Shown here: one piece after another, positions 1 through 60,196 of the stretch
Numbering within the stretch: position 1 is the stretch's first letter
Layout: each line of letters begins with the position of its first letter
Virus record (IMG/VR): IMGVR_UViG_3300012271_000008
Location: 1-64,000 of that record
DNA from: an uncultured virus (IMG/VR IMGVR_UViG_3300012271_000008)
Taxonomy: Duplodnaviria > Heunggongvirae > Uroviricota > Caudoviricetes
Direction: 5' to 3' (one strand)
DNA: 64,000 nt
Notes under the pieces: model-generated
Seen by the model: only the letters and a program-made list of their open reading frames with translations
Told to the model about the DNA's origin: nothing
Databases searched by the model: none
Made by a program: the position numbers and the translations under genes

Positions 1-3000
1 AGGAATTTCATCTACTTCAACTGTAGTAGATTTATCAGCTTGACTTTCTTTTAATTCATCCCACTGATCTATAGTGAAAGCATAAGGACTCATAAGATAA
101 TTACCTATTCTGTTTACTTTAACATAAGAAGCTTTAGAACCTTTGTTTATTTTTTCTCTAGTAAATCCTTCTAATTGGTAATACTCTTGTGCAACTCTTA
201 TTACTCTAGGAAAAGTTAATCTATTATAACCAGTTTCCCAATTCATATCCAGATCAAATAATTTACTCTTAGCTAAAGATTCCATATTTTTTCCAATTTT
301 TTTATTTATTTCAGAGTTAAAATACAATCTTTCAATACCGTCTTTACCTTTGTAATAAGAAACTAAATTATTATTAAAAGGATCATTAACTGTTTGATAT
401 GTAGGAAGATTGTCTGCATCAAATCCTGATCTAACATATCCTTCTTCATTAGTAGCTCCTAATAATGATTTTAATTGATTGTTATTTAAAGTTCTAACAT
501 TTTTGTAATTAACAGTATTTCTTGAATAAGATTTAATAAAATCATCTCTAAGTTGTCCTAAATCCATTCCAAATAAAGCATCATATTTAGCAGGTGTTCC
601 TGAATTTAAAGCTTCTTTTATTTCTGGTAATAAATCTATTAAATTAGGTTTTAAATAACGTAAAGATATTAGTCTAATAAGACTGTTAGATTTAAATTTA
701 AAATTATCTTTTATAGCAACTTGCTTAAATATTAATTTAGCTAGTTTTTTTGCTTTAGGATTAGATGATTCATGTAATTCAGAAAAACCATCTAATAGCT
801 CTGTAGTATCATCCGCATCTTTTTTTGTATTAGTGTTCATTTCACCCCAAGTTAATAAAAGACCTGCAAAATCAGATTTATCTTTAAATTTGTAATTTCT
901 TTGTCTAAGTTGTTGTAATAATTTATTTTCTTGTAAAATTGTATCACCAGCTTTAGCTTCAGCTTTTAAGTCATTTAAAGTATCATAAAATTCTCTATTA
1001 AAAATATCATCGTTGAAATCATATTTAATTTTATTTTTACCTTTATGCATGTAAGCTTTTAATTGTATAAAACTACTAAACTCTCCCAATACTGTTTTAA
1101 AATCGTCTTCTTTAGTAAATCTATTTGATTTGTTATTTATTATTAAAGACTCTAATAAATCTTTACCTCCTATAGAATGGGATATTAAAAATTCTTTTAA
1201 TATATCTCTATCTAATTCTTTTAAGTTAAGTAAACTTCTTTCTATATTTTTATTTTTATTTATAATTGAAAACCAATTAGTAGCTGTCATAACTTTATCT
1301 AAGTTACTAACAACCTTATAACCAGAATTAAATCCAACTCCTAATTTTTTAGTACTATCAAGTATGCTTTGAACATTAGCAGTAGATTTTTTAACTCCTT
1401 TTACTAAAGATAATACTCTAGTAAAATGGAAAATTTCATTTGCAATTTTATCAGTATTTTTAAAGTATTCATAAGATTGTAAATTTATGTCTACCCATCT
1501 TTTTAATTCTGGGCTTATAAATCTTTTGTTTATTTCTATTGAGTCTTCTACTCTAGCATAATTGTCTTCTTGAAATTTTAAATTAGCTAATATATTTTCT
1601 TTATTTACTTTATATTTAATTTTAGAACCAAAAGCAATTTCTAAATCAGATTTACTAAAACCATTAGCTTTTGCTTTTTCCATTAAACCTTTTTTAATGT
1701 CTTCATCAGTAATATAACTTTTATTAGCTTTTATATCTTTCCAAATTTGTATAGAATCTTGCAAAAAGAAAGGTACTGCTTCATTTAAAGGAACTCCTGA
1801 AGAAAATACAGTAGCTATATGTGTAATTAAGTTTTTATTAATACCTAATTTTTCAGAATCAAGATGTTTTGCATTATCTGTAAATGCAGTTATAAAAGCA
1901 GAGATTAATTTATTTACTCTATGCTTTCCTGCCATATCAGTATTAAAAGATGAAAAACCTGGATATACTTCTAAAGGTTTTTCTACAACTTTTATAACAT
2001 CAATACCATCTACATCTTCAATTTCTTTTACTTTAGTAGTAAATTTAGAATCATTAGCTCTCATATATTGAAAAGCAATGTTAAATAAAGCCATAGGCCC
2101 TATACCTCCACTTCCTGCATAATTAGCTTTATGAGCTTGATATTGTGAAGCAGGGTCATGAGCACCACTAACATTATCTTTTAGTGTTATACCTTGTTCT
2201 TCTAAAAATTTATAAGTTTCTAGTATAGGCTCTCTTTCTGAAGTTTCTGTAGCGTGGTCATTAAAGGCTAATTCCATTTGAGCTTCTAATATATTATTAT
2301 CAAGTTCTTCTCTAGTTAAACTAGTTCCGTAATTATCACCTTTTCTTACTGCAATAAATTTATCAAAATAATCACTTTCTTTAAACATTGGTATAGTTAA
2401 AATACCTAAATCAGCATAAACTGAATCTATAGCTGCTTCTATTTTACCATTTTTTAAAGCCATTTCTTTTATGTATTCATCAAATTCATCTACTTCTAAA
2501 GTATTTGATTGAATATTCATTAAATGTCTAAAGTCTTCACTAATATTTCTAACAGCTTCTCTAACTTTACTTTTAACAAGTTTACTTTCAGTAATTTCAG
2601 TCATAGCAGCTTGCATAGCTAACTCTTCACTTTTTATATTTTTATAGTCTCCAAATTTACCTTTATTAGTAAAATTAAATAATTTAGCAAACAAACTATC
2701 AACGTCAAAATCCGATCCAGATATTTCATTAATTTCTGAAGGTATTATAATAGTACTGCCATAAGCACCATCTATCATGTCAACTATTTTTAGTTTAACT
2801 ATAGAAGAATTATCTTGAGTAGGTATTCTAAATCCAAGTTGCATAGCTAAATATTCTGGAATAAATCCATTATTTTCTTTAATTTCTTCTAAATGGTCTT
2901 TAAAAGCATATTTAGATACTATTACTTCAGCTATACCTGTTTTTTTATCATACTTTAATCTTCTAACTGAAGAATGAGTATTGTTAGAATCTGTAGGTAT

Positions 3001-6000
3001 TACATTGTCATTTTTATCAACTTTTACTCTGTAACCAGCATTTGCTGTTAATGTATATTTTCTACCAGCAGATTTAAATTTAAATGAATGCTTACTTACA
3101 TAAGATAAAAACATAGATTCAAATTTAGAAACTACTGCTGTAAAGTTATTATCATATAAAGGTTGTCCTTTAGGATCTAATTCAAATAATTGAGCCATAT
3201 AAGGATCTTCTAAAGAAGAAGCTATATTTGCTTTAAATTCTTTATATAATTCTTTATATCTAGGAACAATGTCTTTTTTATTAGGCATATCTTCAAAAAT
3301 AGTACCTTTTAATATATCAAAACCTTCTTTACTTCTTTCAGCTAAATAAGATTTATATTTAGAAACTAAAGCTTGTTTTTCATCAGATTGCTCTGACCAT
3401 ATAATATTTAATAATTGAGTACCATCAACAATTTCTTCTTTAAAACCATCAGTATTAACTTGTTCTCTAAGAATTCTATTAGACATTTTAATAGGTGATA
3501 ATTTTTCACCTTTTGCGTAATCTGCAGAATTAATAATTGCAGTTTTCATAGCAGATTCATAAGTAACTAAATGAACATTGTTAAGTTCCATGTCATTTAA
3601 CATATTATGCATTTCTATTCTATGAGGTAAAGGCTTGTATAAAGCATGTAATTGAGTAAATAAATAATCTAATATTTCTTCATTTTCTCCTGATATTTCA
3701 ATTTCTTTTATATCTCTTAATAAATTTACAGCTTCTTGTCTGTCTTTAAAAGCAAGCTTAGAAACATCTGCTCTACTAATAGTACTTATAGATGTTTTTA
3801 AATAACTTTGTGCATCTCTTCCAACAATTTTTAATGAATTAAATAAAGCATTATGCTTTTTCATAACATTTAATTCTTTTAAATTAAGTTCTATACCTAA
3901 TCTAGCTTTATCTAATAAACCTATTCCATCTTTTGTGTAAGATCTTTCTAATTCATTTCTAAACTTACCTATACCCCTTAAATATGTGTTTATACGCCAC
4001 CCTGGAGTACTCCAAGTTTGCCCATCTCCTGCTTCATCTATTAAACCTTTTTCTTTACCATTTTCATCTTTAGAATAATTAATTCCAGGAATACTGTAAT
4101 CTTTAATAGTTGCTATATTAGTATGTCCAGATCCTAAAGATTGTCCATAAGCTACTTTACCACCATTTCTTTTTATAATGTCTAATATAGAATTATGACC
4201 TACCATGTCTGAACCATTCATTAAATCAGATAAAGAATGACTATTTATAAAAGTATTTAAAACAAATTTTCCAACTTCTTCTCTATTAACATTGTAAATA
4301 GGTTGTTTATTACTATCAACACCAGATTGACTTGCAAAAGATTCAGGTAATGAGTCAGTTGCTTGCTCTTTTTTAAGAACATTAACATAATTATTTATTT
4401 TTTTAGTAGCATCTGCAGCTAATTGTTTTTTAACTTCTTTTTCTAATTCTTCTGTAATAGTATCAGAATTTAATAAAGCTTTTTTCAAATCATCAGATAA
4501 GAAATTAAATTTAAAAAATTTGTTTTTTCTATCACTTTCTTCTCCTACATTAAATTTATTAATTTTATCAACTAAAGTATCATTTTTAATGATATTAAAT
4601 TCAGTTTGAAATAGTTTAAAATAATCCTTTAAAAAAACAGCATTTGGTTTACCTTTAAATAAATATTCTTTTACAGGTAAAGAAAAAATATAACTTGTAT
4701 TTTTATCTTCATTAACTTCTAAACTAAATTTAGAATAAGTTTTTTTATTTTTAGTAAAGAAAGAGTTTTCATAGTTATACATATTGAATAACATTCTTTC
4801 TATAGGAGTCATGTTTTTAAAATCTTTACCATTTTTAAAATCAGACTGAGTATTTACTGAACCATCTTCAGTAAAAGTAGCTTCTCTAATACCTCCAAGT
4901 ATTTCAGTTTCTTTATTAGCATTAAATATATCATCTAAATTTTCAGTTAAAAGAGGATTATTAGATATAGCTTCCATATACAGTTTAATAAAATCATCTG
5001 TATAAAAAATTTGATTATCTTCTAATACTGATTTTAAATCTTCCCAAGAAGCAACTCCTTCTTTAATATCTTTTAATAAAAACTTAAATTTAGGAGTTTT
5101 TAAAATTCTAAACATATCAGTATAAAAAGAATTACTTACTTTATCTGAAATATTATTACCTTCATTATTTCTAAAAGTAGTTTCTGATAGAGTAGAATCA
5201 AATATTGAATTTGCTGATGCTATAAATTTAAATCTAGTAACAGCTCCTGCACCTTGTCTAGCTACATCTTCATCAATATCATCACTTTGCAATGCAAAAG
5301 GATTATGATTAGCTTTATCATCTCTTAATATACTAAGAAGTCTGTCTGATAATAACCTAACTCCATCAACTTCTTGATCTAATGAATTTCCTGCACTTTC
5401 AAATGTTTCATAAAATTGAACTAAATCTTCTAATACTGCTAAATTAGTGTTACCAATATTTTTGTAATGTTCAATTAGTCCTGTTATGCTATTTTCTAAC
5501 ATTTCACCATTTATTTCTACAGTATTTTCACTAATAAGTGAATCTTTAATCATAGACCATTTAACATAATCTATGTGTAGTTTTAAACCTATTTTTTCTT
5601 CTAAGCTATCTCTTACAAATTTAGCGTTATTATCTAAATTAGCAACCCAAGTACCAATACCTTCATTTTTAGTTGCATTAGGTCCATAAACTTCCATTAC
5701 TTCTTTTTCTATAAAATCAGAAGCTTGATTAGGATCTACAGAGTTTCTAGCAATATTAAAATTAGCATTCCATTTAGAAACTTGATCTCTTGCAATATTT
5801 TTTCTATTAGAATTAAATATTCTATATGTTTTAGATTTAGGATCATATATCATACTTTGAAAATTAACTTTAGTTTTATCAAAATTAGAAACTAATTCTC
5901 TGTATAAAGTACTTCTGTCATAATTTAAAGAATTTTTTATATCAAAATCTTCTTCTATTCCTGCTTCTTTATGAATATCTATTATTACTTTGTCAAAAAA

Positions 6001-9000
6001 AGTTTTAATAGAAGGATTAGATTGTCCCATAAAATAAATTCTAGGTAATATATCTTTTTCAGCAACATCAGCTAAACCTCTAACAAGTGCATCATACACT
6101 CTGTCATGATTAACACTAACTTTCCACATATCATCTTTTAATTCCTCTTCAGTTAAATTTAAACCTAAGTAATCTTCTGATTGATGAACTGTCGTTAAAT
6201 ATGTTCTAATTCTTTTAGAAAGAGAACTTATCCCTGCATATTTACCTAAATCTGGATTAAAATCTCTTTCTGGAGTTTCATCATCATTATCTGTATTTTC
6301 TTCTTCAACTTCTTTAGTATTTACATTAAAGTTATAATTACCTATTCTAGAACTAATTTCATCTCTAATAAGTTTTTCATTAAGTTGTAAACCTTGGCCT
6401 CTCAATGAATTATACATTTTTTTAGATTTTGCAGTAGCTATACGTGGATTATTTATCCAATTAAGTTCTTCTTTAACTTCTTCTATAGCTTTAGTTATTT
6501 TAACTTTATAAGATTCTTCACTAGTATTATTTAAATATCTTTGATGTACTCTAGAAAAAATTATTTCACTATTTCTAGGAGTTAAAGTATTATTACCTGA
6601 AGTTTTTAACATACTAAATACAGGTTCTCCACTAACAATGCTAGTAGAAGTTCTGTCTTTTAATTTACCTTCATAAATAGCATCAAATACTTTAGATAAA
6701 GAACTATCTGTTACAAACCCTAACCAAGATTTAATTTTATTTATAAGTTTTTGTAACCAAGATAATTTAGTAGGTTTATATTCTGCAAATTTATCAGCTA
6801 ATTTTTCTTCTAACCATAATTCTGTAAGTTCTTTTTTACTATATTTATCGTATCTAGAAGTAACTTGTTTTAACTCATTTAAATCTTTAGAAGTAGGATC
6901 TCCAAATTCTTTTTGAGCTAATATTAACATTTGCTCTTTTTCTTCTTTAGTAAAAATAGTTCTAAATACTGCGTGAAAAGCCTCATGATACGCTGTACCT
7001 TTTGTTGCTTTGTTAGAATCTAAGTATATTATATTATTCATAAATACACCAAAAACTTCACCATTAGCTTGTAAATTTTTTAATACAGTATCTAGACTTT
7101 TTATTTTAATAGAAGAAGGTAAAATTTTACTTAATATTTTTTTAGCTTGAGCTATATTAACAGCTTCTCCTTCTAATTTTTTAGTAGAAAAAGCTAAATC
7201 ATCTGAATCTGGATCATCTTCGTTTTCTTTATTATTTATAGAATCTTCTACAATCTGTAAATCATTAAAAAACTGTGACATATTATAACTGTCATGTCCA
7301 AATTCTCTTTTAGCAATAGTAGTTAATGCTTCTAAATATTTAGGACCTAATGATTGTATATCACCTGCTAGTAACATTTCATGTTGTTCTGTACCTCCTA
7401 AAAGTTTTATAAATAATTTTAAACCTGCAGATAAGCTATTTGGAACATGTTCCCAAGTAGTTTTATTTAAATCACTACCGTATTCATTTAAATCTGGTTC
7501 TAAATTAGTAGGTTGTGGAGCAGGATTAGCTGGAGAATTTTCTTCTGGAGCAGGAGTTACAGGATCTTTAGAAGTAGGATTAAAATTTTCAGGAATATCT
7601 TCTGTCATTCTACTAGAAGGTTCTGTAACTATAGCTGCGTCAGTAGGACGTGCTGCTAGCTCTAAATTTTCTTTAGCAGTATTTACATCTTGAGGATATA
7701 TATTAGCAACAGACACGTTACCTGAAGGTACAGTGCCATTTTCTGTTATAATGTTAGCAACGTTTACAGTACCTGTTCTTTTGTCTTTTTGAGTTATAGA
7801 CCATTTAAGTCTAGTATTAATTTGTTCTTTTAAATTAGCAACTGTAAGATCAACTTTTTCTCCTTTTTTAGAGTCAGTAACTATTTGTATATTTGAAAAA
7901 TCTTCATTATAACTTAAACCTAAAAATAAACTATGATGTAAACTAGTTGATCCAGTTCCTTTTGCATTACCATATAAAGTTACTTTTTTACTCCAAGTTC
8001 CATCTTCATTTTTAGTTCTTAATAGAGGAACTGAAATATCTAAATTAACTTTAGTATTAGAATTTTCTCTAACTAAAGTAATTGTAAGAGGCATGTTGTA
8101 AATAGATTTTTTACTATTTTTATCTGTATTTTCGTTATTTTGTTTATCAGACCAATTACTAAATTTTTCAATATTTTCTGCAAAAGTAGTATTTAAAGTT
8201 TCATCATCTATGGTAGCATCATTTTCTGCAGGATAATCTAAACCTATTAACCCATAATTACTTGATCCATCTTTTTTGTTACCTCTAGGTACAAGTAAAA
8301 AATCACTATGATATAATTTAGAAGTGAATTTTGCTCCACCTTCCATCATAATTCTTTTAGCTTCTTGATACATAGCAGGATTAGATTGTCTACTTAATAC
8401 ATATTTATTACCTTCATGTAAAAATAAATAAGCACCTTTAGTCTTTCTAACATTACCTTCTTCATCTTCTGAACTAACAGAATATCCATTTCTATTATAA
8501 AGTAAATGTCCTTTTTTGTTTCCTAAATTTACTTGGGAATCAACAGAATCTTTTACAGAAGTTCTTCCTTCTCCTTTAGGTATGTATTCTAATTGTTTTA
8601 AATATAATTTAAAATCAACAACATCTTTCAAAGCTTCATAACCTATATAAGTACCAGATAAAGCTTCAGTTACTAATGCTTCATAATTATGCTTATAAAA
8701 ATTAAGTTGTTTTAATTCTTCTGGAGTAAAATCTTTATTAAGTTTTTTAATATCATTTAAATCACTAAAATCTAAAGGTCTACCATCAATTGTAAATTTA
8801 TTAGGAACAGACAATGCACCTATTAAAACACCTCCTATTTTTATTCTAAGTGCATATCTTTTACCATCTGTATGTAAATAACTTGAAGACACTTTAACAT
8901 CAGTGTCCATTAAACTTCCATCTTTATTTTTAGAAGGAGAATCTTCTACAGGAGCATCTTCCCATTCTTCTACAGAAAATTGAAGAACTTTTTTTATTTC

Positions 9001-12000
9001 ATCCCAACTTCTACCTTGAAGAACTTCTTCTACATTTATATCTTTACCATTTTCATCTTTATTAAAAAATCTAACAAAAGATTTTACAGAATTTAATACA
9101 CTAGTAAAACCATTATAAGATTTTTCTTTAGATTTATTTATTAAAGAACTTATTGAACTTTGTACATAATTTTCTAATTTATAAATAGTGTCTAATAATT
9201 CTTCATATTCTGCTTTAATTTCTTCAAAAGCAACTGTACCATCATCTTCATTTTTAATTTTATCTTTTAAACTATTTTTACTATTAGTTAAATATACTTT
9301 AAAATTATTAAATTGTGCTAAAGTTTTAGAAGTTTCGTTGTATGTATTTAAATTATCTATAATTGTTTTTATAAGTTTATTTTCACTTTTTGTTGTAAGA
9401 GTATTTGGTTTACTAACATCTTTATTGTCTAAATTAGCTTGTTCTTCTATTTTTTCTGTTATTTGTTGTATTTGCTCTTCAGTTAAAGTTTCACTAGATT
9501 GTACAATTTCTTTTAATTTGTTGTATAAATTAATTCTAGAATCTTTTATAGAAGCTTCTCTTACTTTATCTAATTCTTCTGTAAAAGCTTTAAAACCTTC
9601 TATTGATAATAGAGTTGACATATCTTCTACATAAGCTTCTCTTTGAGATGCCATTTTAGTCAAATCATTTAATTTGTTTTCAGTAGATTTAGCTCTAGTA
9701 GGTTTATCTACATATAAATTATTTACTTGATCTTGTAAAGCTGTAGTACTTTCTACTAATTCTTTAAAAGATTCAAAGTCTCTATCATATTTTTTACCTT
9801 TATTTGTAGTATTTTTTCTTTTAGTGTGTTCTTTTTTAAGAGCTCTGTAATATCTGCTTTTTTGTTTGTTAACTTTTTTTCTTAATACTTCAATTTCTGA
9901 CTGACTAGCATCAATACTTTCAGCATCTTTTAATTCTTCTTCAGATTCTTCAAGTTCTTTTTTATGACCTCTAAACCTATCTATAGCTTTTTTAGTCCAT
10001 CTTACACTATTATTTTCATTACGAATATCTAAAAGTGTTCTAGCATCTATATTTAAATCTTTAGAAATACTATCAGCTAACTCAACTTCTCTTTTATCTA
10101 AATCACTAACCATGTAATCATTATAAGCAACAGCTTCAATAAGTTCACTACTATTTAAAGTTCCAGCATCTGTTACAAAAGAATAATCTTGTATAGTCTT
10201 TTCAGCTTGTCTAATAGCTTCAACAGCTCTATTAGTATTATCTGTAGCAGTTTCTATAACTTCTTTTTTACGGGCATATAATTCCTCTTGAGTCATATTA
10301 CCTTCATATCCAAAAGTTTCTGCAAACTCTTCAATAGGCATATTTTCAACTTCTTCTACAGTGTCTCCAAGCATTTGATCTGATACACCAAGTTTGTATC
10401 TATTAGCAACCATATTATAAAACTCTTGAGATTCTGCATTTTTACCTCTATAAAAATCTTTTTTATTATGAGCTTCATGCATTTCTTTATTAGTTTCGTG
10501 AACTAAATTAGCTTGTTTTTGCATAAGAGCTAATTTACTCATACCAGGATCTGCATTTGCTAATTCTACTAATTTTTCAGCTTCAGCAATTTTATCATTT
10601 GTGTCAGTTACAGCTCCAACTAAAGATCCTTGCCACATTCCTTTAGCTCCACTTTTAAAATTAAAGGTAGGAGAACCTAAAGAACCTATTATCATACCTA
10701 TACCAACTTCTTTCCAAAATTCATTGTCAAATGAACTTCCATAAGTTTTATCAAATGCATCATTCATAGCTGAAACAACATCATAACTTGTTGCTACTCC
10801 TTCAGGACTATATGATTTAGATATGTATTCAAGACCAGTTCTTTTAACAAAACCTTGACCACCTTCCTCAAATAAACCTTCAGTTAAAGGTCTTTTAATA
10901 AGTTCTTTACTAAAATGTGAAGTTTTTTGTAACTTATTCCAATTATTATAAGCTAAATTATAAGCTCCTTCTCTGCCAGAAACTCTAGTAGGAGATAATA
11001 TGCTTGAATTTATTGAACCTGATTTAAATAATCCCTTACCAAATGTTTTAGGTAATGTAACAAAATTAGATAAACCAACTAAAGCAGTATTACCTGCAAA
11101 TACAAAATTAGCAGCACTATTAATTGAACTTTCTAAAGTATTATATAACTCAGGATTAGATTTTTTTAGTTGTTCTTTTGAATCAACACCTTCTAAACCT
11201 TTTAATCTTTCAGCCCAAGCTTCATCTTTAAATCCTCTAGCTTCAACACCTGCTTCATAACCTGCACCAGTGATAAGTCTTCTTGTAAATAAAGCAGTTT
11301 TATCTATTTTATTTGCAGCATTTATAGCTGATCTAGCAGAACTAATAGCACTTACTCCTGTTTTAGCTTTGTTAGCTTTGTTTAAAGAATTTATACCTCT
11401 AGCAGCTTTAGCCATTAATCTTGCAGTCATACCTGCTTGTAAAGCACCTGTAGCTCCAAATGTAGCTGCTGTAGCTGCTGTCATAGTTATTTCAGATAAT
11501 ACTGCAGATACTGTAAATGCCATACCTCCTAAAAAATCATCTGCCCAAAAATTAGCAGTACCCATATTTTTGTACCAAGCTCTATCTCTTTCTTGATTAG
11601 TACTAAAATTTTGAAACTTTTCTCTAGTAGCATCATCCCATGAATCTAATGTTTGAGTAAAATCATTATCAAAAAATTTATTAAAACTTCCATTTACAAT
11701 AGCAGAACCTGTACCATAAAATAAATTGGCTACATTACCTACTACTCCTGTACCTACTTGTTCAGTAAATTTAGCAATACCATTAGACCATTTTTCTCCT
11801 GTAGTTTGTTGTCTAGCTTGAAAATGTTCTAAATCATATCCTAAATCTCTAAATGAAGCTGAAGAAACTCTTCCTTTATACTCACCTGCAGCTATGCTAC
11901 CTGATAATGGTGCAGAACCTACATTTGCAGGTGTAGTTATTTCTGGAGTTACTCCTTCAGGTACTACTGTACCTCCTTGTTGTACAAAATCTTCTACTGT

Positions 12001-41974: not shown

Positions 41975-42414
41975 TATACTTTTCTTAATTCAAAATGAGG
42001 CATATCATCAAATCTTTGATCTGTTAATATCTCTCCGTCCATATCCCAATTGGCTCCCCACCTTACTTGGTGTGTTATTTCTCCTTCTGACAATAATATT
42101 GTAGCTGATGCTAAAATAGAACCTCCTAAAGCAGCTAAATGTGCAGGGTCAAAAGCCAATTTTTTATTTCCCTTCACATAGGCACATATGTCCACAGCCA
42201 TAGAAGGCGAAAGATTATGCTTACCTAGTTTTTTATATCCATCTATTTTAGATGCACCTTTTTTAAACAACTCATTTTGCCTTGCAATGCTTCTGTGCCC
42301 CTCTGTGATAATAAAATCAACAGGAGTTAACTGGATTGCTAACGCAAATATTTTTTGTAAATCTTCATGACAAGTTTTTAAATTGCCAAAAGATCTTTTA
42401 CTTAATTTATACAT
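41974..42414 (-). CDS. Endolysin, M15 family L-Ala-D-Glu peptidase
   Basis: LSKRS...HEDL...EGHRS...KH...AVD...WGANW...DMPHFEL. Confidence 0.88.
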   Translation of the reverse strand: MYKLSKRSFGNLKTCHEDLQKIFALAIQLTPVDFIITEGHRSIARQNELFKKGASKIDGYKKLGKHNLSPSMAVDICAYVKGNKKLAFDPAHLAALGGSILASATILLSEGEITHQVRWGANWDMDGEILTDQRFDDMPHFELRKV

Positions 42415-43927
42415 ATTTAGTTTTTACCATTACTTTAGTTGTAAGCAAAGTAGCCACAACTGAAACTGCATTTTCAACTGCAATTATTGTTACTTTAGCA
42501 GGATCTAATATTTTAGTTTTGCTCCTTTTCTCCATCTCCATAGTCTTTGCATTAAAAATAGAATCAGTATCATGATTTAGTATTGCTTCTTCAATTACTA
42601 ATATATCTTTTTCTTGAACACTTGCATTAATGCATATTTGTTTAAAAGGTATACTAGCTGCTACAGACAATAATTTACAGTGTTGTCCAGCTATTAATAA
42701 AGCAACACCTCCACCTGGAAGTACACCTTGTTCTAAGGCTGCTCTAGTTGCTGCGACTGCATCATCTACTCTGTCTTTCTTTTCTTTTAATTCAATTTCT
42801 GTGGTAGCACCTACTTTTATAATAGCTACTTTGCCTTTTAATTTAGCAATTCTTTCATCCACTCTACTTTGTTCGTACTCAGTAGGCAATTCATCTTTTA
42901 TGTTTAATAGACCTTGAATTCTGTCTTCTGCTTTATTTTCTTTACCTATAAAAGTAGTTTTTCTTTGAGATATAATTACTTTTTCAATAGTACCAAAAGG
43001 TTCGGTTGGTTTTAAAGTATCTGTAACAACACTTCCACCTGTAATAGCACATATATCTTTTAAGCTTTCTAATCTACCTTGTGCATATCCTTCTGGAGTT
43101 ATAACACAACATTTAATCCTACCATTAACATTGTTATGTGCTAACCAAGATAAAGCTTCACCAGTTACTTTAGCGTTAACTATAAGTAAAGGTTTATTAG
43201 CTTCCATAGCTTGTTGCATTAAAGGTAATACATCTGCAGAGGATTTCATAGGTAAATTAGTACAATATACTAAAGGATTTTCATATTCAACTACTTTTGA
43301 ATCAGCTCCAGGAGTTAAAAAGTGTATAGACTCATAACCTCTGTCTATTTCCATACCTTTTACAAATTCTACTTCTGTTTCTATACCAGTAGCTTCTTCA
43401 ACAGTTACTACACCATTTTTTCCTACAGTATTAAATACTCCTGCTATTAATTCTCCTAGTTTTTCATCACCATTACAAGAAATAGTAGAAATATCTATTA
43501 AATTCTTAGAGTTTACTTTTAAAGTTTGTTCTTTTAAGGATTCTATAATAACAACTAGATCATCCTCCATTTCTTTTTTAATTGTTAAAGGATCTGCTCC
43601 ATTAGCAATTCTTTCTGCACCTAGATTGTAAATAGATTGAGCTATTACTGTAGCTGTAGTTGTTCCATCACCTACTAAGTCATTTGATTTAGTAGCTACT
43701 TCTTGTATAACTCTAATAGCAATATTTTCTATTGCATCTTCAGACCATATCTCTTTAGCTACTGATACACCATCTTTTGTTATAATAGCTTTAGGATTAC
43801 CATTAACATCTTCTTTATATATAATTACATTCCTACCTTTAGGTCCTAACGTCACTTTTACGGCGTCACATATAATGTTAACGCCGTCTTTTAGTGAATC
43901 TTGTAATTCTTTTCCAAATATAACCAT
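42407..43927 (-). CDS. groEL: Chaperonin GroEL homolog
   Basis: TLGPKGRNV, TKDGVSVA, GDGTTTATV, DRGYES, EKKDRVDDA, PGGGVALL, DPAKV. Confidence 0.95.
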   Translation of the reverse strand: MVIFGKELQDSLKDGVNIICDAVKVTLGPKGRNVIIYKEDVNGNPKAIITKDGVSVAKEIWSEDAIENIAIRVIQEVATKSNDLVGDGTTTATVIAQSIYNLGAERIANGADPLTIKKEMEDDLVVIIESLKEQTLKVNSKNLIDISTISCNGDEKLGELIAGVFNTVGKNGVVTVEEATGIETEVEFVKGMEIDRGYESIHFLTPGADSKVVEYENPLVYCTNLPMKSSADVLPLMQQAMEANKPLLIVNAKVTGEALSWLAHNNVNGRIKCCVITPEGYAQGRLESLKDICAITGGSVVTDTLKPTEPFGTIEKVIISQRKTTFIGKENKAEDRIQGLLNIKDELPTEYEQSRVDERIAKLKGKVAIIKVGATTEIELKEKKDRVDDAVAATRAALEQGVLPGGGVALLIAGQHCKLLSVAASIPFKQICINASVQEKDILVIEEAILNHDTDSIFNAKTMEMEKRSKTKILDPAKVTIIAVENAVSVVATLLTTKVMVKTKYV

Positions 43928-43929
43928 AA

Positions 43930-44388
43930 TTATTCTGCTGGTTCTACATAGTCTACTCCGTAAGACTCATAAGTTAGTACATAGGGAGAAAACTTTTTAT
44001 TGTTATCAGTCCATGCACTAGAATCTGTCTTATCAAAATAAATTGTACTTCTTGGATAATTATCTAAGCTCCAATGAACAATATCCCCTACTTCTACTTC
44101 TACACATTGTGGTCCTTTTGCTATTACTATACCTTTGTTTTGATACATAGGTTTGTAGCTGTCCTCTCTATCTACACCTTCTGAATCTGTGATTAGTCCT
44201 GATTCAGGAGCTAACAATCCATTGTCATCTTCATCTGGCATATCATATCTTTTAATTATTAGTAAATCTTTAATGGTTTTTCCAATTTTATCTTTGTACT
44301 CATCCATTACATAAACTTCTTCTGTCTTTTTAACCATGGCTGTAGCCATATCCTCATTTGTTGTTTTGTTTTTCATATTAATCTTCAA
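43930..44388 (-). CDS. GroES-like co-chaperonin
   Basis: GIVIAKGPQCVEVEVGDIV motif, directly upstream of GroEL. Confidence 0.65.
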   Translation of the reverse strand: MKINMKNKTTNEDMATAMVKKTEEVYVMDEYKDKIGKTIKDLLIIKRYDMPDEDDNGLLAPESGLITDSEGVDREDSYKPMYQNKGIVIAKGPQCVEVEVGDIVHWSLDNYPRSTIYFDKTDSSAWTDNNKKFSPYVLTYESYGVDYVEPAE

Positions 44389-46232: not shown

Positions 46233-46259
46233 TAAAAAAAGGAGAGTGTAAACTCTCCT
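46233..46259 (-). terminator. Intrinsic terminator
   Basis: Minus strand AGGAGAG-TTTACA-CTCTCCT-TTTTTT. Confidence 0.8.
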
Positions 46260-46470: not shown

Positions 46471-46825
46471 ATGTGTATGTTATATAAGTTAATGTAACTG
46501 CTATTATTAAAGAAGTTATTCTAACAAATAGATTAGCAGCTACGGGTAGTTTTTTAAATTCTAAATCAGTTTTATTACTACCTAAATAAAACCATTCTTT
46601 CATTTTTATCTTTGAGAAAGCTAAATCAAATATAGCTACTCTTAAAAAAAAGTATATAGGAACTCCTAAATAACTATTTATTAATAGTCCCATTATACTA
46701 GCAATCATAACAGTACCAGTTAACCTTAAATTTGATATTAGATCATGTTTGTCACCATATATTACTTCTAAAGTAACTTCTAATAGAACCAATAACAATA
46801 AGTTTATAAATAAGAGTGTATACAT
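46457..46825 (-). CDS. Membrane protein
   Basis: 122 aa with 3-4 hydrophobic segments. Confidence 0.6.
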   Translation of the reverse strand: MYTLLFINLLLLVLLEVTLEVIYGDKHDLISNLRLTGTVMIASIMGLLINSYLGVPIYFFLRVAIFDLAFSKIKMKEWFYLGSNKTDLEFKKLPVAANLFVRITSLIIAVTLTYITYTYEFI

Positions 46826-46841
46826 AATTTCTTTGTCTTTT

Positions 46842-47119
46842 ATACTTACTGTGAAATAAGCATAGCTTTTCCCCTTGTAAGTTTTACCTTAGTTGCTATT
46901 TCAAGTTTAAACTTCGTTAGTAGCAGTGATTGAGCCTCTGGATAACAATATGGGGTGAACTCCCCAGACCTTTATGGTGTCTAATCTATCCAACACTACT
47001 AACTCGTTTTAACCCTTGTGTATCTATTGGAGAAAACTCTGATTCTATTTGAATCTACAATCCAACTTCTAACCTCTTATTGGTTACCTAGAGGTGGTAT
47101 TCATAACTGAATGATACAC
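46842..47119 (-). ncRNA. Candidate large structured ncRNA
   Basis: ORF-free and GC-elevated, starts immediately after a promoter, many nested stems (see findings). Confidence 0.6.
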
Positions 47120-47121
47120 TA

Positions 47122-47153
47122 CAAATATACAACTATTTTTATTAATATCCTAA
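47122..47153 (-). promoter_or_regulatory. Bacteroidota sigma-70 type promoter
   Basis: TTAG-N20-TATATTTG. Confidence 0.65.
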
Positions 47154-47167
47154 TTTATTTTAAAGTT

Positions 47168-47605
47168 TTATGTATATTTTTTCATTATATTCTCTAAATC
47201 ATTTAATATCTTTACATTAGATGTAATATCTTTTTCTTTAATGTCTTCTACTCTCTGTATTAGCTTTATCCAATCATCTGCCTTCATTACAACAAAGTGT
47301 TCATTAGTTTTAGAAGTCTTCTTATGTGCTATTACAGTAGGGTATTTTTGTATACTATCATCTTCTGTAAAGTTCTTTTCTTTGCAAGCATCTATCTTAT
47401 CAAATATATCTTTATAGTTAATGCCTCTAGGATACCCACATTTTAATTGCATATTATAAGGTATGTTTATAAGGTCTATACCTGAATCATCAGCTATCCT
47501 ACTACCTTGCCTTGCAGTAATACATTTATCCCAACCTAAGTCTTTAAACACATTAGCCCACATTCTTTCATACCTATGCCCTTTGTCTCTGTTTTTATTT
47601 GCCAT
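47168..47605 (-). CDS. Holliday junction resolvase-like PD-(D/E)xK nuclease
   Basis: NRDKGHRYER...DDSGIDL...MQLK. Confidence 0.75.
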   Translation of the reverse strand: MANKNRDKGHRYERMWANVFKDLGWDKCITARQGSRIADDSGIDLINIPYNMQLKCGYPRGINYKDIFDKIDACKEKNFTEDDSIQKYPTVIAHKKTSKTNEHFVVMKADDWIKLIQRVEDIKEKDITSNVKILNDLENIMKKYT

Positions 47606-49978: not shown

Positions 49979-50348
49979 GGGGGTGTTCTGGCTTTTGACA
50001 GAATGGCTATGATTAGACGAACAAGTATGCAAAAATGAAACTATCAATGCATTAAATAATATGTTTCAAGTCATAAACGACAAACAAATATCAAATACAA
50101 CTGTTGATGCTCAAGGAGTATTACAGATGTTCCCTACTGTTAAGCTAGAAATAGCAGCATAGTATGGCTGATTTAAGCTGGTAACTAAATTACCAAAAAC
50201 AGAGATAAAACTGTAAAGCTAAAGGTGGAGCTTGTACTAAGTAGTACAGCCTAATATTCTAGTTTAAAGAATACAAACAAAAACAAAACTTGTAACAATT
50301 TATTTATGATTAACATTTTGGACCTGGGTTCGACTCCCAGCACCTCCA
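49979..50348 (+). ncRNA. ssrA: tmRNA
   Basis: Acceptor stem GGGGGTG/CACCTCC with G3:U pair and discriminator A; TTCTGGCTTTTGAC at the 5' end; GAC-CTGGG-TTCGACT-CCCAG T arm; internal tag frame ending ...EIAA-TAG (50160-50162). Confidence 0.92.
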
Positions 50349-50382
50349 CAATAATAATTTAACATTTTAACAATTTAACATT

Positions 50383-55203: not shown

Positions 55204-55932
55204 ATGAACAAATTAAAAATTGGATTAGTAACAAATATGACTGTAAGAAGTCATGTAGGCATGGGAATTGCTTATGTAAGATTTTGTGAAGAAATAGCAA
55301 GAAGAGCCGAAAAAACATTAAATTTAGTATTAATACATCATACTAATGATTTTATTAAAGACTTAGACATTTTAATATTACCTGGTGGAGCTGACGTAGA
55401 TCCTGCACTTTATGATGAAGAATTATCTTCATTAGTAGGTCGTTTAGATCCACAGAGAGACTTTTTTACTAGAAATGTATTACCATTATATGTTGAGAGT
55501 AAAACGCCTATATTTGGCATTTGTAGAGGTCATCAAGAATTAGCTGCTCATTTTGGTATGAAGCTTATTCAAGATAAGATAGAACCTTTGTCTGAATATG
55601 TATTTGGAGCAGTTATAGAAAAAGTGGAATTAAAGAATTTCTTTAATACTCATGCTTCTGGTGCTAAAAAAGGAGAATACATATTAATAAAAGATGAAAG
55701 AGTTAATCACATTATGGATGTTAATTCTAGACATCATCAATGTGTTAAAGTTTGTGACACTGAAAAAGCAGTTGTAACAGCAGCTCTAGGTAAAATTGAT
55801 TCTGGTAGAATAGAAGCAATGGAATATATAGGTTATCCTATAGTGTCTGTACAATGGCATCCTGAAATTTTGTTTGATACATATACTATGAGATCAATTG
55901 AATTACTACTAGAATATGAAAAAAAAGATTAA
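55204..55932 (+). CDS. Class I glutamine amidotransferase / peptidase C26 family
   Basis: LPGGADVDP..Y, GICRGHQ, VNSRHHQ, VQWHPE. Confidence 0.88.
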   Translation: MNKLKIGLVTNMTVRSHVGMGIAYVRFCEEIARRAEKTLNLVLIHHTNDFIKDLDILILPGGADVDPALYDEELSSLVGRLDPQRDFFTRNVLPLYVESKTPIFGICRGHQELAAHFGMKLIQDKIEPLSEYVFGAVIEKVELKNFFNTHASGAKKGEYILIKDERVNHIMDVNSRHHQCVKVCDTEKAVVTAALGKIDSGRIEAMEYIGYPIVSVQWHPEILFDTYTMRSIELLLEYEKKD

Positions 55933-56021: not shown

Positions 56022-56089
56022 GAACACACATAGCTTAATGGTAAAAGCATTTTTTAAAAAAGATTATGGTTCGATTCCATGTGTGTTCG
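56022..56089 (+). ncRNA. tRNA-like element with collapsed anticodon arm
   Basis: GAACACA/TGTGTTC stem; D arm GCTT-AATGGTAA-AAGC; T6A6 hairpin in place of the anticodon arm; TATGG-TTCGATT-CCATG T arm. Confidence 0.6.
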
Positions 56090-58332: not shown

Positions 58333-58422
58333 GGTCAATTAAACTCATTGGTAGAGTTCTAGACTTTAAGTGATTAAGTTCACCCAAATCCTGAGTAATA
58401 AGTTCGATTCTTATATTGACTG
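58333..58422 (+). ncRNA. tRNA-like element (Trp-like) with insertion in anticodon loop
   Basis: GGTCAAT/ATTGACT stem; ACTC-ATTGGTA-GAGT D arm; ATAAG-TTCGATT-CTTAT T arm; CT-[18 nt]-CCA-AA. Confidence 0.6.
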
Positions 58423-58437
58423 CTATTATTTAATATT

Positions 58438-58979: not shown

Positions 58980-59591
58980 ATGAAGATAACTAAAAATAAA
59001 GTTTTTTCTAATAGAAGTTTTAACAATAAAATATATTACAAGACTCATAAAAATGCACCAAAATATGGTGCAGAGTCTTGTTTTTCATTTTTAAATTTAA
59101 ACTCAAACTATTTAAAAATTGAATTACACAAACATTCTGATATTACAAGAAAAGAATTCTTAGAATATTTAAGAAAAATGAAATTAATTTTTAAAGATTT
59201 AGAATACAAAAAAGAAAAAAAGAAATATTATTTAATTATGGGTAGTTCTTTATTACCTAAAGGTACTTTAAATTCTAAAAAAAAAACTCTTGCAATTCTA
59301 ACAATAATTAGATTTTTATGGGAAAGCCATGGAGATTGTTATTCTGTTTCTTTTATTAAAGAATTTGTAAATGATAATCGTAGAATAGAAACTATGATTA
59401 AATTTTCAGAAGCATTCAATAATAATAAAGATAAAATCTATTATTCTTCAGGACATGGTATAGATAGCCTCAATAATAAATCAAAAGGAATAGTAATTCA
59501 AACTTCTAAAGAATTTTTTAGTAAAGATAAAGATAGTGTGACAGGTTATTTTGCAAGAAAAGAATCTAAATTTAAACCAAAAGCAATATGA
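58980..59591 (+). CDS. Hypothetical protein
   Basis: 203 aa; SCFS, LTIIRFLWE, SGH; coupled to the GATase gene. Confidence 0.65.
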   Translation: MKITKNKVFSNRSFNNKIYYKTHKNAPKYGAESCFSFLNLNSNYLKIELHKHSDITRKEFLEYLRKMKLIFKDLEYKKEKKKYYLIMGSSLLPKGTLNSKKKTLAILTIIRFLWESHGDCYSVSFIKEFVNDNRRIETMIKFSEAFNNNKDKIYYSSGHGIDSLNNKSKGIVIQTSKEFFSKDKDSVTGYFARKESKFKPKAI

Positions 59592-60196
59592 AAAAAGTAT
59601 ATGTAATAGGAAATGCAGTAAATTATGCTGAATTTTTAAAAGATTTTGAACTAACTAATGATTCAAAATCAGCAGATCTTATAATTTTAACAGGAGGAGA
59701 GGATGTAAGTCCTGAACTTTATGAAGAAGATTCTCATCCACATACAGGAAACAATCCTGTAAGAGATGCTAGTGAAATAAATTCTTGGAATAAAATAAAA
59801 CAAGAAAATCCTGATGTTTTAACTATGGGTATATGTAGAGGGTCTCAATTGGGATGTGTGTTGTCAGGTGGAAAACTTGTACAACATATGAATCATCCTT
59901 ATATGCACAAAGTTTCTACACCAGAAGGTAAAGATTATGAAGTAACTAGTACCCATCATCAAATGCAATATCCTTTTAATCTTAATGAAAAAGATTATGA
60001 AATTAAAGCTTATTGTAAAATAACAGGTAGTACTTATGCAGAAGGAGTTCCAGCAGGTATGGAAAAACCTCCTGTAGATCCTGAAATAGTATTTTATAAT
60101 AAAACTAAAATATTAGCAATACAAGGTCATCCTGAAATGGTTCCTAACAGTGAATTTGCTTTAGAAGTAAATAATCTGGTTAATAGTCTTATTTAA
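59588..60196 (+). CDS. Class I glutamine amidotransferase / peptidase C26 family
   Basis: TGGEDVSPELY, GICRGSQ, VTSTHHQM, IQGHPE. Confidence 0.88.
   Translation: MKKVYVIGNAVNYAEFLKDFELTNDSKSADLIILTGGEDVSPELYEEDSHPHTGNNPVRDASEINSWNKIKQENPDVLTMGICRGSQLGCVLSGGKLVQHMNHPYMHKVSTPEGKDYEVTSTHHQMQYPFNLNEKDYEIKAYCKITGSTYAEGVPAGMEKPPVDPEIVFYNKTKILAIQGHPEMVPNSEFALEVNNLVNSLI

What the first reader, a model, noticed from the sequence alone, without database searches (positions are those of the whole stretch)
46842..47129. Promoter-driven ~280-nt multi-domain structured RNA on the late strand
Seen: an ORF-free, GC-elevated region starting right after TATATTTG. Domain 1 is closed by 47113-47119/47018-47024 (GTGTATC/GATACAC) and contains hairpins ATTCA/TGAAT, ACCTCT/AGAGGT, TTGGA/TCCAA and GATTC/GAATC. 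Domain 2 is closed by the 8-bp GTTAGTAG/CTACTAAC (46996-47003/46916-46923) and contains TGGATA/TATCCA, AGAC/GTCT and GGGG/CCCC junction helices. Domain 3 has CTTG/CAAG with TAAG/CTTA and a 3' hairpin. I cannot assign it to a known family. Inference: a novel phage ncRNA (ribozyme, packaging/scaffold RNA or protein sponge) or a large 5' leader for two membrane genes.
Basis: partly seen in the sequence, partly recalled or inferred. Interest (0 to 1): 0.75.

Follow-up and report, generated by a model that had tools for sequence, protein, structure and literature searches.

The report
New structured RNA gene of crAss-like phages
The spacer holds a real, roughly 270-base folded RNA gene with its own promoter, from a previously undescribed family shared by many crAss-like phages and a few mobile elements in Bacteroidota chromosomes; what it does is still unknown.

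Summary
Observation confirmed.

**It is a conserved structured RNA:**
- A diverged copy in a relative (TerL 68% identical) keeps the helices; 23 of 53 predicted pairs changed on both sides.
- A core pattern found 113 stretches in viral contigs and 8 in Bacteroidota genomes.
- On 64 distinct phage copies, 91.3% of cells pair against 64.7% in shuffles, and 44 of 49 pairs show compensatory change.

**It has its own promoter:** a Bacteroidota -7 box (TAnnTTTG) lies 2-6 nt before the first helix in 41 of 64 copies.

**It is not known:** no Rfam 15 family matches the window, 14 phage loci or the 8 bacterial loci.

**Carriers:** crAss-like phages (35 of 38 records hold the capsid homolog) and integrase-bearing islands.

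**It is probably not a leader for the two membrane genes.** Downstream genes differ. In 21 of 28 long spacers a second promoter box follows. In six of eight bacterial loci the next ORF converges on it.

Best reading: a stand-alone non-coding RNA gene of a new family, mechanism unknown.

The parts
47122..47129 (-). -7 promoter box TATATTTG (Bacteroidota type, TAnnTTTG), 2 nt before helix P1
   Evidence: Read. The same box lies within 16 nt upstream of P1 in 41 of 64 family members, and a relaxed form in 51 of 64. It is exact in 6 of 8 bacterial copies. That TAnnTTTG is the Bacteroidota -7 consensus is recalled knowledge, not a tool result.
47018..47119 (-). 5' domain, the conserved core. P1 is 47113-47119 with 47018-47024. 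The optional hairpin P1a is 47108-47112 with 47099-47103. P2 is 47090-47095 with 47072-47077. The junction UUAGA is 47068-47072. P3 is 47061-47066 with 47026-47031. P4 is 47051-47055 with 47041-47045. The strand GUUUUC is 47032-47037.
   Evidence: helices 1-5: P1 has 7 of 7 pairs with changes on both sides, P4 has 5 of 5, and P3 is 100% paired. In P3 the two degenerate pairs covary (CG 41, UA 19, UG 4; AU 31, GC 31, GU 2), although the search pattern left them free. The same holds on a plain MAFFT alignment.
46903..47015 (-). Central domain. The outer helix is GGGTT 47011-47015 with AACTT 46903-46907. The closing helix is 46996-47003 with 46916-46923. Inside are hairpins AGAC/GTCT and GGGG/CCCC.
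   Evidence: One search gives compensatory changes against L087 (for example GGGG/CCCC becomes CCTG/CAGG). helices 6-10, are 88-98% paired with changes on both sides. The domain varies in size and is replaced by another version in some members.
46850..46905 (-). 3' part. Hairpin CTTG 46902-46905 with CAAG 46874-46877. G-run GGGG 46871-46874. Then GCTATGC 46860-46866, inside a small hairpin AAAAGC-UAU-GCUU.
   Evidence: A hairpin followed by AGGG(G)(G)A, 4-5 nt and UAU(A/G)(U/C) recurs 100-250 nt after the core in 56 of 64 distinct phage copies. A related form, AAGGGGAUUUUUAUG, occurs in the bacterial ones. The 3' end of the RNA is not mapped.

Best explanation
This is the gene of a stand-alone, highly structured non-coding RNA of about 270 nt, running from about 47119 to about 46850 on the minus strand. 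It is the first described member of a family carried by crAss-like phages and by integrated mobile elements of Bacteroidota.

Shown:
- A host-type promoter (-7 box TAnnTTTG) sits 2-6 nt before the first helix, so the 5' end of the RNA is probably the start of helix P1.
- The RNA folds into a 5' multi-helix junction, a variable central domain, and a 3' hairpin followed by a G-run motif.
- The junction has conserved unpaired strands UUAGA and GUUKUC, and an internal loop of the AGUA/GA type.

Inferred:
- It is its own transcription unit.
- It acts in trans, as a folded RNA that binds a host or element factor (decoy, scaffold or RNP component) during takeover or maintenance of the mobile element. 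It does not regulate one particular downstream gene.

The partner and the biochemical activity are unknown.
For: **Structure conserved through compensatory change**
- 23 of 53 pairs changed on both sides with two sequences.
- 64 distinct sequences, 91.3% paired against 64.7% shuffled; 0 of 500 shuffles reach any measure; slid controls 35-46% paired.
- G-U pairs on this strand (P3: GU 31 and UG 33 of 64) would be A-C mismatches on the other strand. This points to an RNA read from the minus strand.

**Own promoter**
- A TAnnTTTG box lies directly upstream of P1 in 41 of 64 copies and in 6 of 8 bacterial copies.
- Two members carry TTGACA with a TATATT-like or TATTTT-like hexamer instead (L152, L111).

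**Not tied to a gene**
- The first downstream ORF differs between members: membrane protein, 72-aa protein, GroES-like, others.
- Of 56 phage copies with a recognisable 3' motif and a downstream ORF, 28 have spacers of 60 nt or more. 21 of those 28 hold another TAnnTTTG box, against a background of 1.16 per kb.
- In six of eight bacterial loci the next ORF downstream converges on the RNA: integrase in L209, L213 and L215; other ORFs in L212, L214 and L216.
- No protein neighbour is shared between phage and bacterial contexts.

**Accessory, mobile distribution**
- 113 stretches in viral contigs.
- 35 of 38 carrier records encode a homolog of the window's crAss-type capsid protein; complete ones are 85-102 kb.
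- 8 hits in 185,579 species genomes, all Bacteroidota, next to tyrosine integrases, tRNA genes, AAA_24, DUF3871, RadC, or Vsr with a C5 methylase.
- One copy per genome in 4 of 5 bacterial genomes.
- Only the seed genome matched among 401 genomes of its family.
Against: - No transcript data. No RNA run holds the sequence, so start, end and abundance are inferred.
- A clean intrinsic terminator after the RNA is not general. My scan found a hairpin plus T-run somewhere in the 420 nt after the core in 20 of 72 copies, and at the 3' motif in only about 8.
- In the other 28 of 56 phage copies the next ORF starts 0-50 nt after the 3' motif. There the RNA must be co-transcribed with it, so a leader role cannot be excluded.
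- In the window the 122-aa ORF starts 34 nt after the model's end.
- The family was collected with an exact pattern built from three sequences. The 27 pattern positions are invariant by construction, and low-scoring model hits (20-40 bits) owe much of their score to the pattern itself.
- The alignment was fitted to the model's structure.
- Acting in trans and binding a factor is pure inference.
Confidence: 0.6

Rival explanations
1. It is a cis-acting leader at the head of the long leftward (late or structural) gene block. It would work as a switch or a processive antitermination element that decides whether RNA polymerase reads on. The G-run of the 3' motif would pair either in a terminator-like hairpin or with the UCYCC strand of helix P3.
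For: - The RNA is promoter-proximal and co-directional with about 35 kb of minus-strand genes in the window.
- It is co-directional with the conserved downstream genes in the phage loci: 31 of 32, 26 of 26 and 23 of 23 for the three commonest neighbour clusters.
- In 28 of 56 phage copies an ORF starts within 50 nt of the 3' motif.
- In L216, L211 and L215 the G-run is the 3' strand of a hairpin followed by a U-run.
- GGGGA of the motif is complementary to UCYCC of P3 in nearly all copies. I read this by eye.
Against: - Downstream genes are not conserved.
- 21 of 28 long spacers carry a fresh promoter box.
- In 6 of 8 bacterial loci nothing co-directional follows.
- The G-run/UCYCC complementarity shows no covariation: G pairs with both C and U, so it proves nothing.
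- At 250-350 nt, with several conserved junctions, it is larger than known antiterminator RNAs. That comparison is recalled.
Confidence: 0.2
2. It is an origin-associated primer or pre-primer RNA, working in the manner of ColE1 RNA II. Host RNA polymerase would make a folded transcript whose G-run, followed by an A/T-rich stretch, forms a persistent hybrid and hands over to DNA synthesis.
For: - It is shared by two kinds of self-replicating elements.
- In the window it lies about 1 kb from the point where gene orientation and cumulative GC skew turn, at about 48.1-48.3 kb.
- In bacterial islands it lies between the integrase and replication-type genes: AAA_24 in L212 and L214, helicase plus AAA_25 in L211.
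- The G-run followed by UAUAU or U-rich sequence is conserved.
Against: - No iterons or notable repeats lie around it.
- The skew turn coincides with the switch in gene strand and need not mark an origin.
- Nothing requires such a complex conserved 5' junction for priming.
- The analogy with RNA II is recalled, not tested.
Confidence: 0.08
3. It is a ribozyme (self-cleaving or otherwise catalytic), or an RNA-only assembly of the kind recently reported for other large phage RNAs.
For: - It has a multi-junction fold with conserved unpaired nucleotides, which is typical of RNAs with tertiary structure.
- It is carried by mobile elements.
- There is no conserved protein partner in cis.
Against: - No match to any ribozyme family of Rfam.
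- No feature here points to a cleavage site.
Confidence: 0.07
4. There is no functional RNA. The region is a decayed gene, or a DNA-level site such as a packaging or attachment site.
For: - The single-sequence fold is only z = -2.55.
- A 40-150 aa ORF can be read inside the element in some group members.
Against: - Compensatory changes occur in nearly every helix, and G-U pairs are specific to one strand.
- No ORF lies on the RNA strand in the window.
- The internal ORFs are not shared between groups.
Confidence: 0.03

Closest known systems
GOLLD and ROOL RNAs (large structured RNAs of phages and prophages, function unknown)
   Same: A large, multi-junction, well-conserved RNA carried by phages and integrated elements. 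It is not tied to one protein gene, and its function is unknown.
   Different: - No match to these or any other Rfam models.
- About half their size or less.
- Hosts are Bacteroidota and the carriers are crAss-like phages.
- tRNA genes lie within 2.5 kb in only 6 of 47 loci scanned.
UG27-associated ncRNA of gut phages (PMC9226505; passages read)
   Same: A predicted structured RNA in phages of Bacteroidetes, some of them Crassvirales.
   Different: - That RNA lies between a UG27 reverse transcriptase and a partner gene and is described as three long stem-loops.
- The window's record has no reverse transcriptase (PF00078 found 0 matches).
- None appeared among the frequent neighbours.
- The supplementary figure with its structure was not seen, so the two could not be compared directly.
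Promoter-proximal antiterminator RNAs (phage HK022 put, EAR)
   Same: It sits directly behind a promoter at the head of a long one-strand gene block in the phages.
   Different: - It is much larger.
- It stands alone facing convergent genes in bacterial islands.
- No Rfam match.
- Properties of put and EAR are recalled.
6S RNA, tmRNA, RNase P RNA and SRP RNA (housekeeping RNAs that phages sometimes copy)
   Same: Similar size range and a host-type promoter. The same phage does carry a tmRNA gene elsewhere.
   Different: - None of their models match at E up to 10.
- It is rare in bacterial genomes: 8 of 185,579 species genomes and 1 of 401 in one family, whereas housekeeping RNAs are universal.

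Membership tests
Any Rfam 15 family (4227 models) | Score at or above the family's gathering threshold, or at least a low E-value | tested here: not met
   - Window at gathering threshold: only a tmRNA and two tRNAs, elsewhere.
- 46600-47400 at E up to 10: one 22.6-bit snoRNA hit outside the element.
- 13 homolog loci at E up to 1: tRNAs and noise only.
- 8 bacterial loci at gathering threshold: tRNAs only.
- L213 and L101 elements at E up to 10: noise of 12.6-20.2 bits.
Housekeeping RNA copy (6S, RNase P, SRP, tmRNA) | Present in essentially every genome of the host lineage | tested here: not met
   The exact core pattern occurs in 8 of 185,579 species genomes, and in 1 of 401 genomes of the family of G039, which is the seed itself. 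An exact pattern undercounts, but the gap is very large.
Gene-specific cis-regulator (riboswitch or protein-binding leader) | The same gene family, or functionally related genes, downstream across members | tested here: not met
   The first downstream ORFs differ. The window's two membrane genes occur in 2 of 80 phage loci. In six of eight bacterial loci the next ORF downstream converges on the RNA.
Gene-specific cis-regulator (riboswitch or protein-binding leader) | An expression platform: a terminator, or occlusion of the start site, that alternates with the sensor fold | tested here: inconclusive
   A terminator-like hairpin at the 3' motif appears in about 8 of 72 copies. The G-run is complementary to the P3 strand, but without covariation (read by eye).
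Retron or UG/Abi reverse-transcriptase ncRNA | An adjacent reverse transcriptase gene | tested here: not met
   PF00078 finds nothing in the window's 74.7-kb record (the record is 74% complete). No RT cluster is among the frequent neighbours.
GOLLD/ROOL-like large phage RNA | Homology to the family model | tested here: not met
   No Rfam hit.
GOLLD/ROOL-like large phage RNA | Forms RNA-only multimers | not testable with these tools
   This needs native gels or cryo-EM.
Self-cleaving ribozyme | Site-specific cleavage of the transcript | not testable with these tools
   This needs an in vitro transcription and cleavage assay. No ribozyme model matches.

The most novel reading that the evidence does not exclude
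The RNA is a new functional class of trans-acting RNA machine. Mobile elements of Bacteroidota, both lytic crAss-like phages and integrative islands, would bring it along to act on a core host apparatus (transcription, translation or replication), comparable in standing to 6S RNA or tmRNA. Alternatively it is a new ribozyme or a self-assembling RNA. Its conserved junction strands and the G-run tail would be the working surfaces.
Probability: 0.2. Interest if true: 0.9.

Novelty: categorically new. Interest (0 to 1): 0.8.

Why it matters
- **Abundant phages, poorly known RNAs.** crAss-like phages are among the most abundant phages known (recalled), yet their non-coding RNAs are almost unexplored. 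Two full-text searches pairing crAss terms with structured or non-coding RNA found nothing relevant, and a third turned up only the reverse-transcriptase-linked UG27 RNA.
- **A large family.** Here is a complex RNA of 250-350 nt with strong covariation, a defined promoter, more than 100 copies in viral contigs, and relatives in integrated elements of cultured Bacteroidota. Large conserved RNAs of this kind have repeatedly turned out to be ribozymes, riboswitches or RNP cores.
- **Directly testable.** Five bacterial carriers are cultured isolates, so the family can be studied without a phage-host system.
- **Immediate practical gains.** The family offers a new annotation feature for crAss-like genomes and a marker of the start of their late or structural gene block.

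Tried and rejected
**Searches that found nothing**
- blastn of the window RNA, of three other variants, and of the 12-kb neighbourhood against named phages and plasmids: no match.
- Model R1 against FpV4, phi14:2, crAss001 and cr56_1: nothing except an 8.8-bit hit at E 0.66. The family is therefore not general in Crassvirales, or R1 is too narrow.
- Expression data: no RNA holder listed.
- Earlier notes of this scan: nothing.

**Technical limits**
- A broader core model was not built. MAFFT alignments A7 and A8 were not structure-aware: RNAalifold recovered only P3 on A7, and on A8 the P1 strands were visibly misaligned. A6 has too many columns for a model.
- The sigma-70 promoter scan is uninformative here: 11 sites found against 15.1 expected.

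**Ideas considered and dropped**
- *tRNA adjacency.* Only 6 of 47 loci have a tRNA gene within 2.5 kb.
- *The 3' motif as Shine-Dalgarno plus start codon of a mini-ORF.* The window reads MLISQ-stop. However, about half of the copies have AUA instead of AUG, the peptides are unrelated, and the G-run is GGGG(G), not GGAGG.
- *The 3' motif pairing with GUUKUC or with the P2 strand.* There is no compensating change.
- *Resemblance of UUAGAAG..GG to the 23S GTPase-centre loop, of AGAAGUCGGG to RNase P CR-I, and of GGUAACC..GUUGGAU to the 16S 3' end.* These were noticed from memory only. The topology differs, the RNase P and rRNA models do not match the element, and the similarities were not tested further.
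- *Iterons or an origin signature.* No notable repeats.
- *A conserved protein partner in cis.* None is shared between phage and bacterial loci.

Full report
**What is in the window**

The stretch 46826-47167 lies between a 145-aa gene and a 122-aa membrane ORF, all on the minus strand. The 145-aa gene matches PHROG families for a RusA-like resolvase. No ORF of 30 aa or more is on the minus strand in the spacer. GC rises to 0.34-0.38 against 0.22-0.29 around it.

Folding 310 nt gives -71.8 kcal/mol against -59.7 +/- 4.8 for shuffles (z = -2.55; 1 of 100 shuffles as good). That is suggestive but not decisive. Rfam finds nothing there at gathering threshold or at E up to 10.

**The phage**

- The window belongs to a 74.7-kb virus record, 74% complete.
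- Genes found include major head, portal, large terminase, virion structural proteins, holin, endolysin and a GroEL/GroES-like pair. An ORF of more than 3,800 codons runs off the window start.
- The terminase finds 145 named phage records, all below 60% identity. The best are Flavobacterium psychrophilum phages (35%), then gut crAss-like phages.
- It is therefore an environmental crAss-like phage. DNA runs holding the sequence are from lake water and a salt lake.

**Homologs and covariation**

Two IMG/VR contigs carry identical copies. Relatives with 68% identical terminase carry a diverged copy, found by nhmmer at E 8e-9 (L087 and L089).

- In L087 the copy has different neighbours: a 219-aa ORF upstream that looks PhoH-like to my eye (not scanned) and a 72-aa ORF downstream.
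- RNAalifold on window plus L087 predicts 53 pairs, of which 23 changed on both sides and stayed paired. One example is GTGTATC/GATACAC becoming TTGTTAG/CTAACAA.
- Model R1 built from this pair found a third, shorter version in L082, in the same position relative to HU-like, GroES-like and GroEL genes.

From the three sequences I wrote the pattern TTAGAMRTYGGRTT-N15-45-GTTKTCYCCRRTA.

- It matched 113 stretches in viral contigs. DNA was fetched for 80 of them.
- R1 matched in 78 of those 80 at E up to 0.01, giving 64 distinct sequences.
- On that alignment 91.3% of cells pair (shuffles 64.7%) and 44 of 49 pairs show compensatory changes.
- The covariation score is 0.435, against 0.149 for shuffles (0 of 500 reach it) and at most 0.063 for slid partners.

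Caveats:
- The alignment is fitted to the model.
- The pattern positions are fixed by the way the set was collected.
- Weak model hits draw much of their score from the pattern.

Checks that do not depend on the model or the pattern:
- The two degenerate P3 pairs were left free by the pattern, yet they are always compatible on a plain MAFFT alignment (CG 39, UA 15, UG 4; AU 29, GC 27, GU 2; 0 of 58 broken).
- An anchored search finds P1 directly behind the promoter box with very different sequences. Examples are TGCAAC/GTTGCA, GAAGC/GCTTC, AGTAG/CTACT and TGGCT/AGCCA.
- Frequent G-U pairs on this strand argue for RNA rather than DNA structure, and for the minus strand.

**Anatomy**

1. *Promoter.* TAnnTTTG lies within 16 nt upstream of P1 in 41 of 64 members, and a relaxed form in 51 of 64. 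Helix P1 starts 2-6 nt after the box. Two members have TTGACA with a TATATT-like or TATTTT-like hexamer instead. That TAnnTTTG is the Bacteroidota -7 element is recalled knowledge.
2. *5' domain, about 100 nt.*
   - P1 and an optional hairpin.
   - P2, directly followed by UUAGA.
   - P3 and P4, separated by an internal loop (UU(A)GUA facing RAGGUUKUC). P4 usually carries an AAAUA loop.
   - After P1 closes comes an A-rich strand.
3. *Central domain.* It varies in size and occurs in at least two versions. One has a GAAUUAA hairpin and, in some members, GGGUGUA..UGACGUACAG. This version is shared by phage and bacterial copies.
4. *3' part.* A hairpin is followed by AGGG(G)(G)A, 4-5 nt and UAU(A/G)(U/C), 100-250 nt after the core. 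Total length is about 250-350 nt.

**Who carries it**

- 35 of 38 carrier virus records encode a homolog of the window's capsid protein (23-79% identity). Complete records are 85-102 kb. The carriers are therefore a deep range of crAss-like phages.
- R1 did not find it in FpV4, phi14:2, crAss001 or cr56_1.
- The same pattern hit 8 contigs among 185,579 species genomes, all Bacteroidota. R1 confirms 7 of the 8; L215 has the pattern but no model hit.
- These loci carry tyrosine integrases next to tRNA genes (L209, L213) or an integrase trio (L215). Others carry AAA_24, DUF3871, RadC, helicase plus AAA_25, or Vsr plus a C5 methylase. They look like integrated mobile elements.
- Four of five bacterial genomes searched have one copy.
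- In 401 genomes of one carrier's family, only the carrier itself matches.
- The RNA is accessory and mobile, not housekeeping.

**Leader or gene?**

Against a gene-specific leader:
- The next ORF differs among members.
- The window's two membrane genes recur in only 2 of 80 phage loci.
- 21 of 28 spacers of 60 nt or more hold a further TAnnTTTG box, against a background of 1.16 per kb.
- In L209, L213 and L215 the RNA converges on the integrase. In L212, L214 and L216 it converges on other ORFs.

For some cis role:
- The RNA is always co-directional with the downstream phage genes.
- 28 of 56 copies have an ORF within 50 nt of the 3' motif.
- A canonical terminator is seen at the motif in only about 8 of 72 copies.

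I therefore rank a stand-alone RNA gene first (0.6). A cis leader or switch comes second (0.2), an origin or primer RNA third (0.08), a ribozyme or self-assembling RNA fourth (0.07), and no function last (0.03). That a conserved structured RNA exists at all I put above 0.95.

**Comparison with what is known**

- No Rfam 15 model matches the window, 14 phage loci or the 8 bacterial loci.
- Full-text searches pairing crAss terms with structured or non-coding RNA gave nothing relevant.
- A Crassvirales/ncRNA search and a CMfinder-based one turned up the UG27 reverse-transcriptase ncRNA of gut phages. I read passages of that paper (PMC9226505).
- The UG27 RNA is tied to a reverse transcriptase. 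The window's record has none.
- Candidate RNA lists in supplements of microbiome surveys (for example PMC8040213, seen only as a search listing) were not checked and could hold an unnamed match.
- In lifestyle the nearest analogues are the large phage RNAs GOLLD and ROOL (recalled), but there is no homology.

**Verdict**

Its function is open and can be tested in cultured carriers.

Noticed in passing
window 49979-50351 (+): The phage carries a tmRNA gene. Rfam scores it 55.5 bits (gathering score 47). ARAGORN gives the tag peptide VDAQGVLQMFPTVKLEIAA.
   Followed up: partly
window 56024-56089 (+) and 58333-58423 (+): Rfam calls two tRNA genes. ARAGORN confirms only the second, tRNA-Leu(taa), 91 nt long.
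   Followed up: partly
window 1-11500 (-): One open frame of more than 3,800 codons runs off the start of the window. It is reminiscent of the giant virion proteins of crAss-like phages (recalled) and was not scanned.
   Followed up: no
window 42407-43927 (-) and 43930-44376 (-): A GroEL-like chaperonin (PHROG E 9e-120; Pfam Cpn60_TCP1) sits next to a weak GroES-like gene. GroES-like genes also follow the RNA directly in 19 of 64 homolog loci.
   Followed up: partly
window 55204-55932 (+) and 59588-60196 (+): Two genes match the PHROG family 'glutamine amidotransferase'.
   Followed up: no
L120:3355-5024 (+): In one group of 92-102 kb phage contigs, an array of 11 tRNA genes starts about 640 nt downstream of the RNA on the same strand.
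   Followed up: partly
L215:3436-6055 (-): The Sediminibacterium locus has three consecutive tyrosine-recombinase ORFs next to the RNA. On its other side are DUF5677 and Peptidase_M91 genes.
   Followed up: no
window 46240-46259 (-): A strong terminator-like hairpin (AGGAGAGT-TTAC-ACTCTCCT followed by TTTTTTT) lies after the two small membrane ORFs. The RNA plus these two ORFs may therefore form a short unit of their own in this phage.
   Followed up: no
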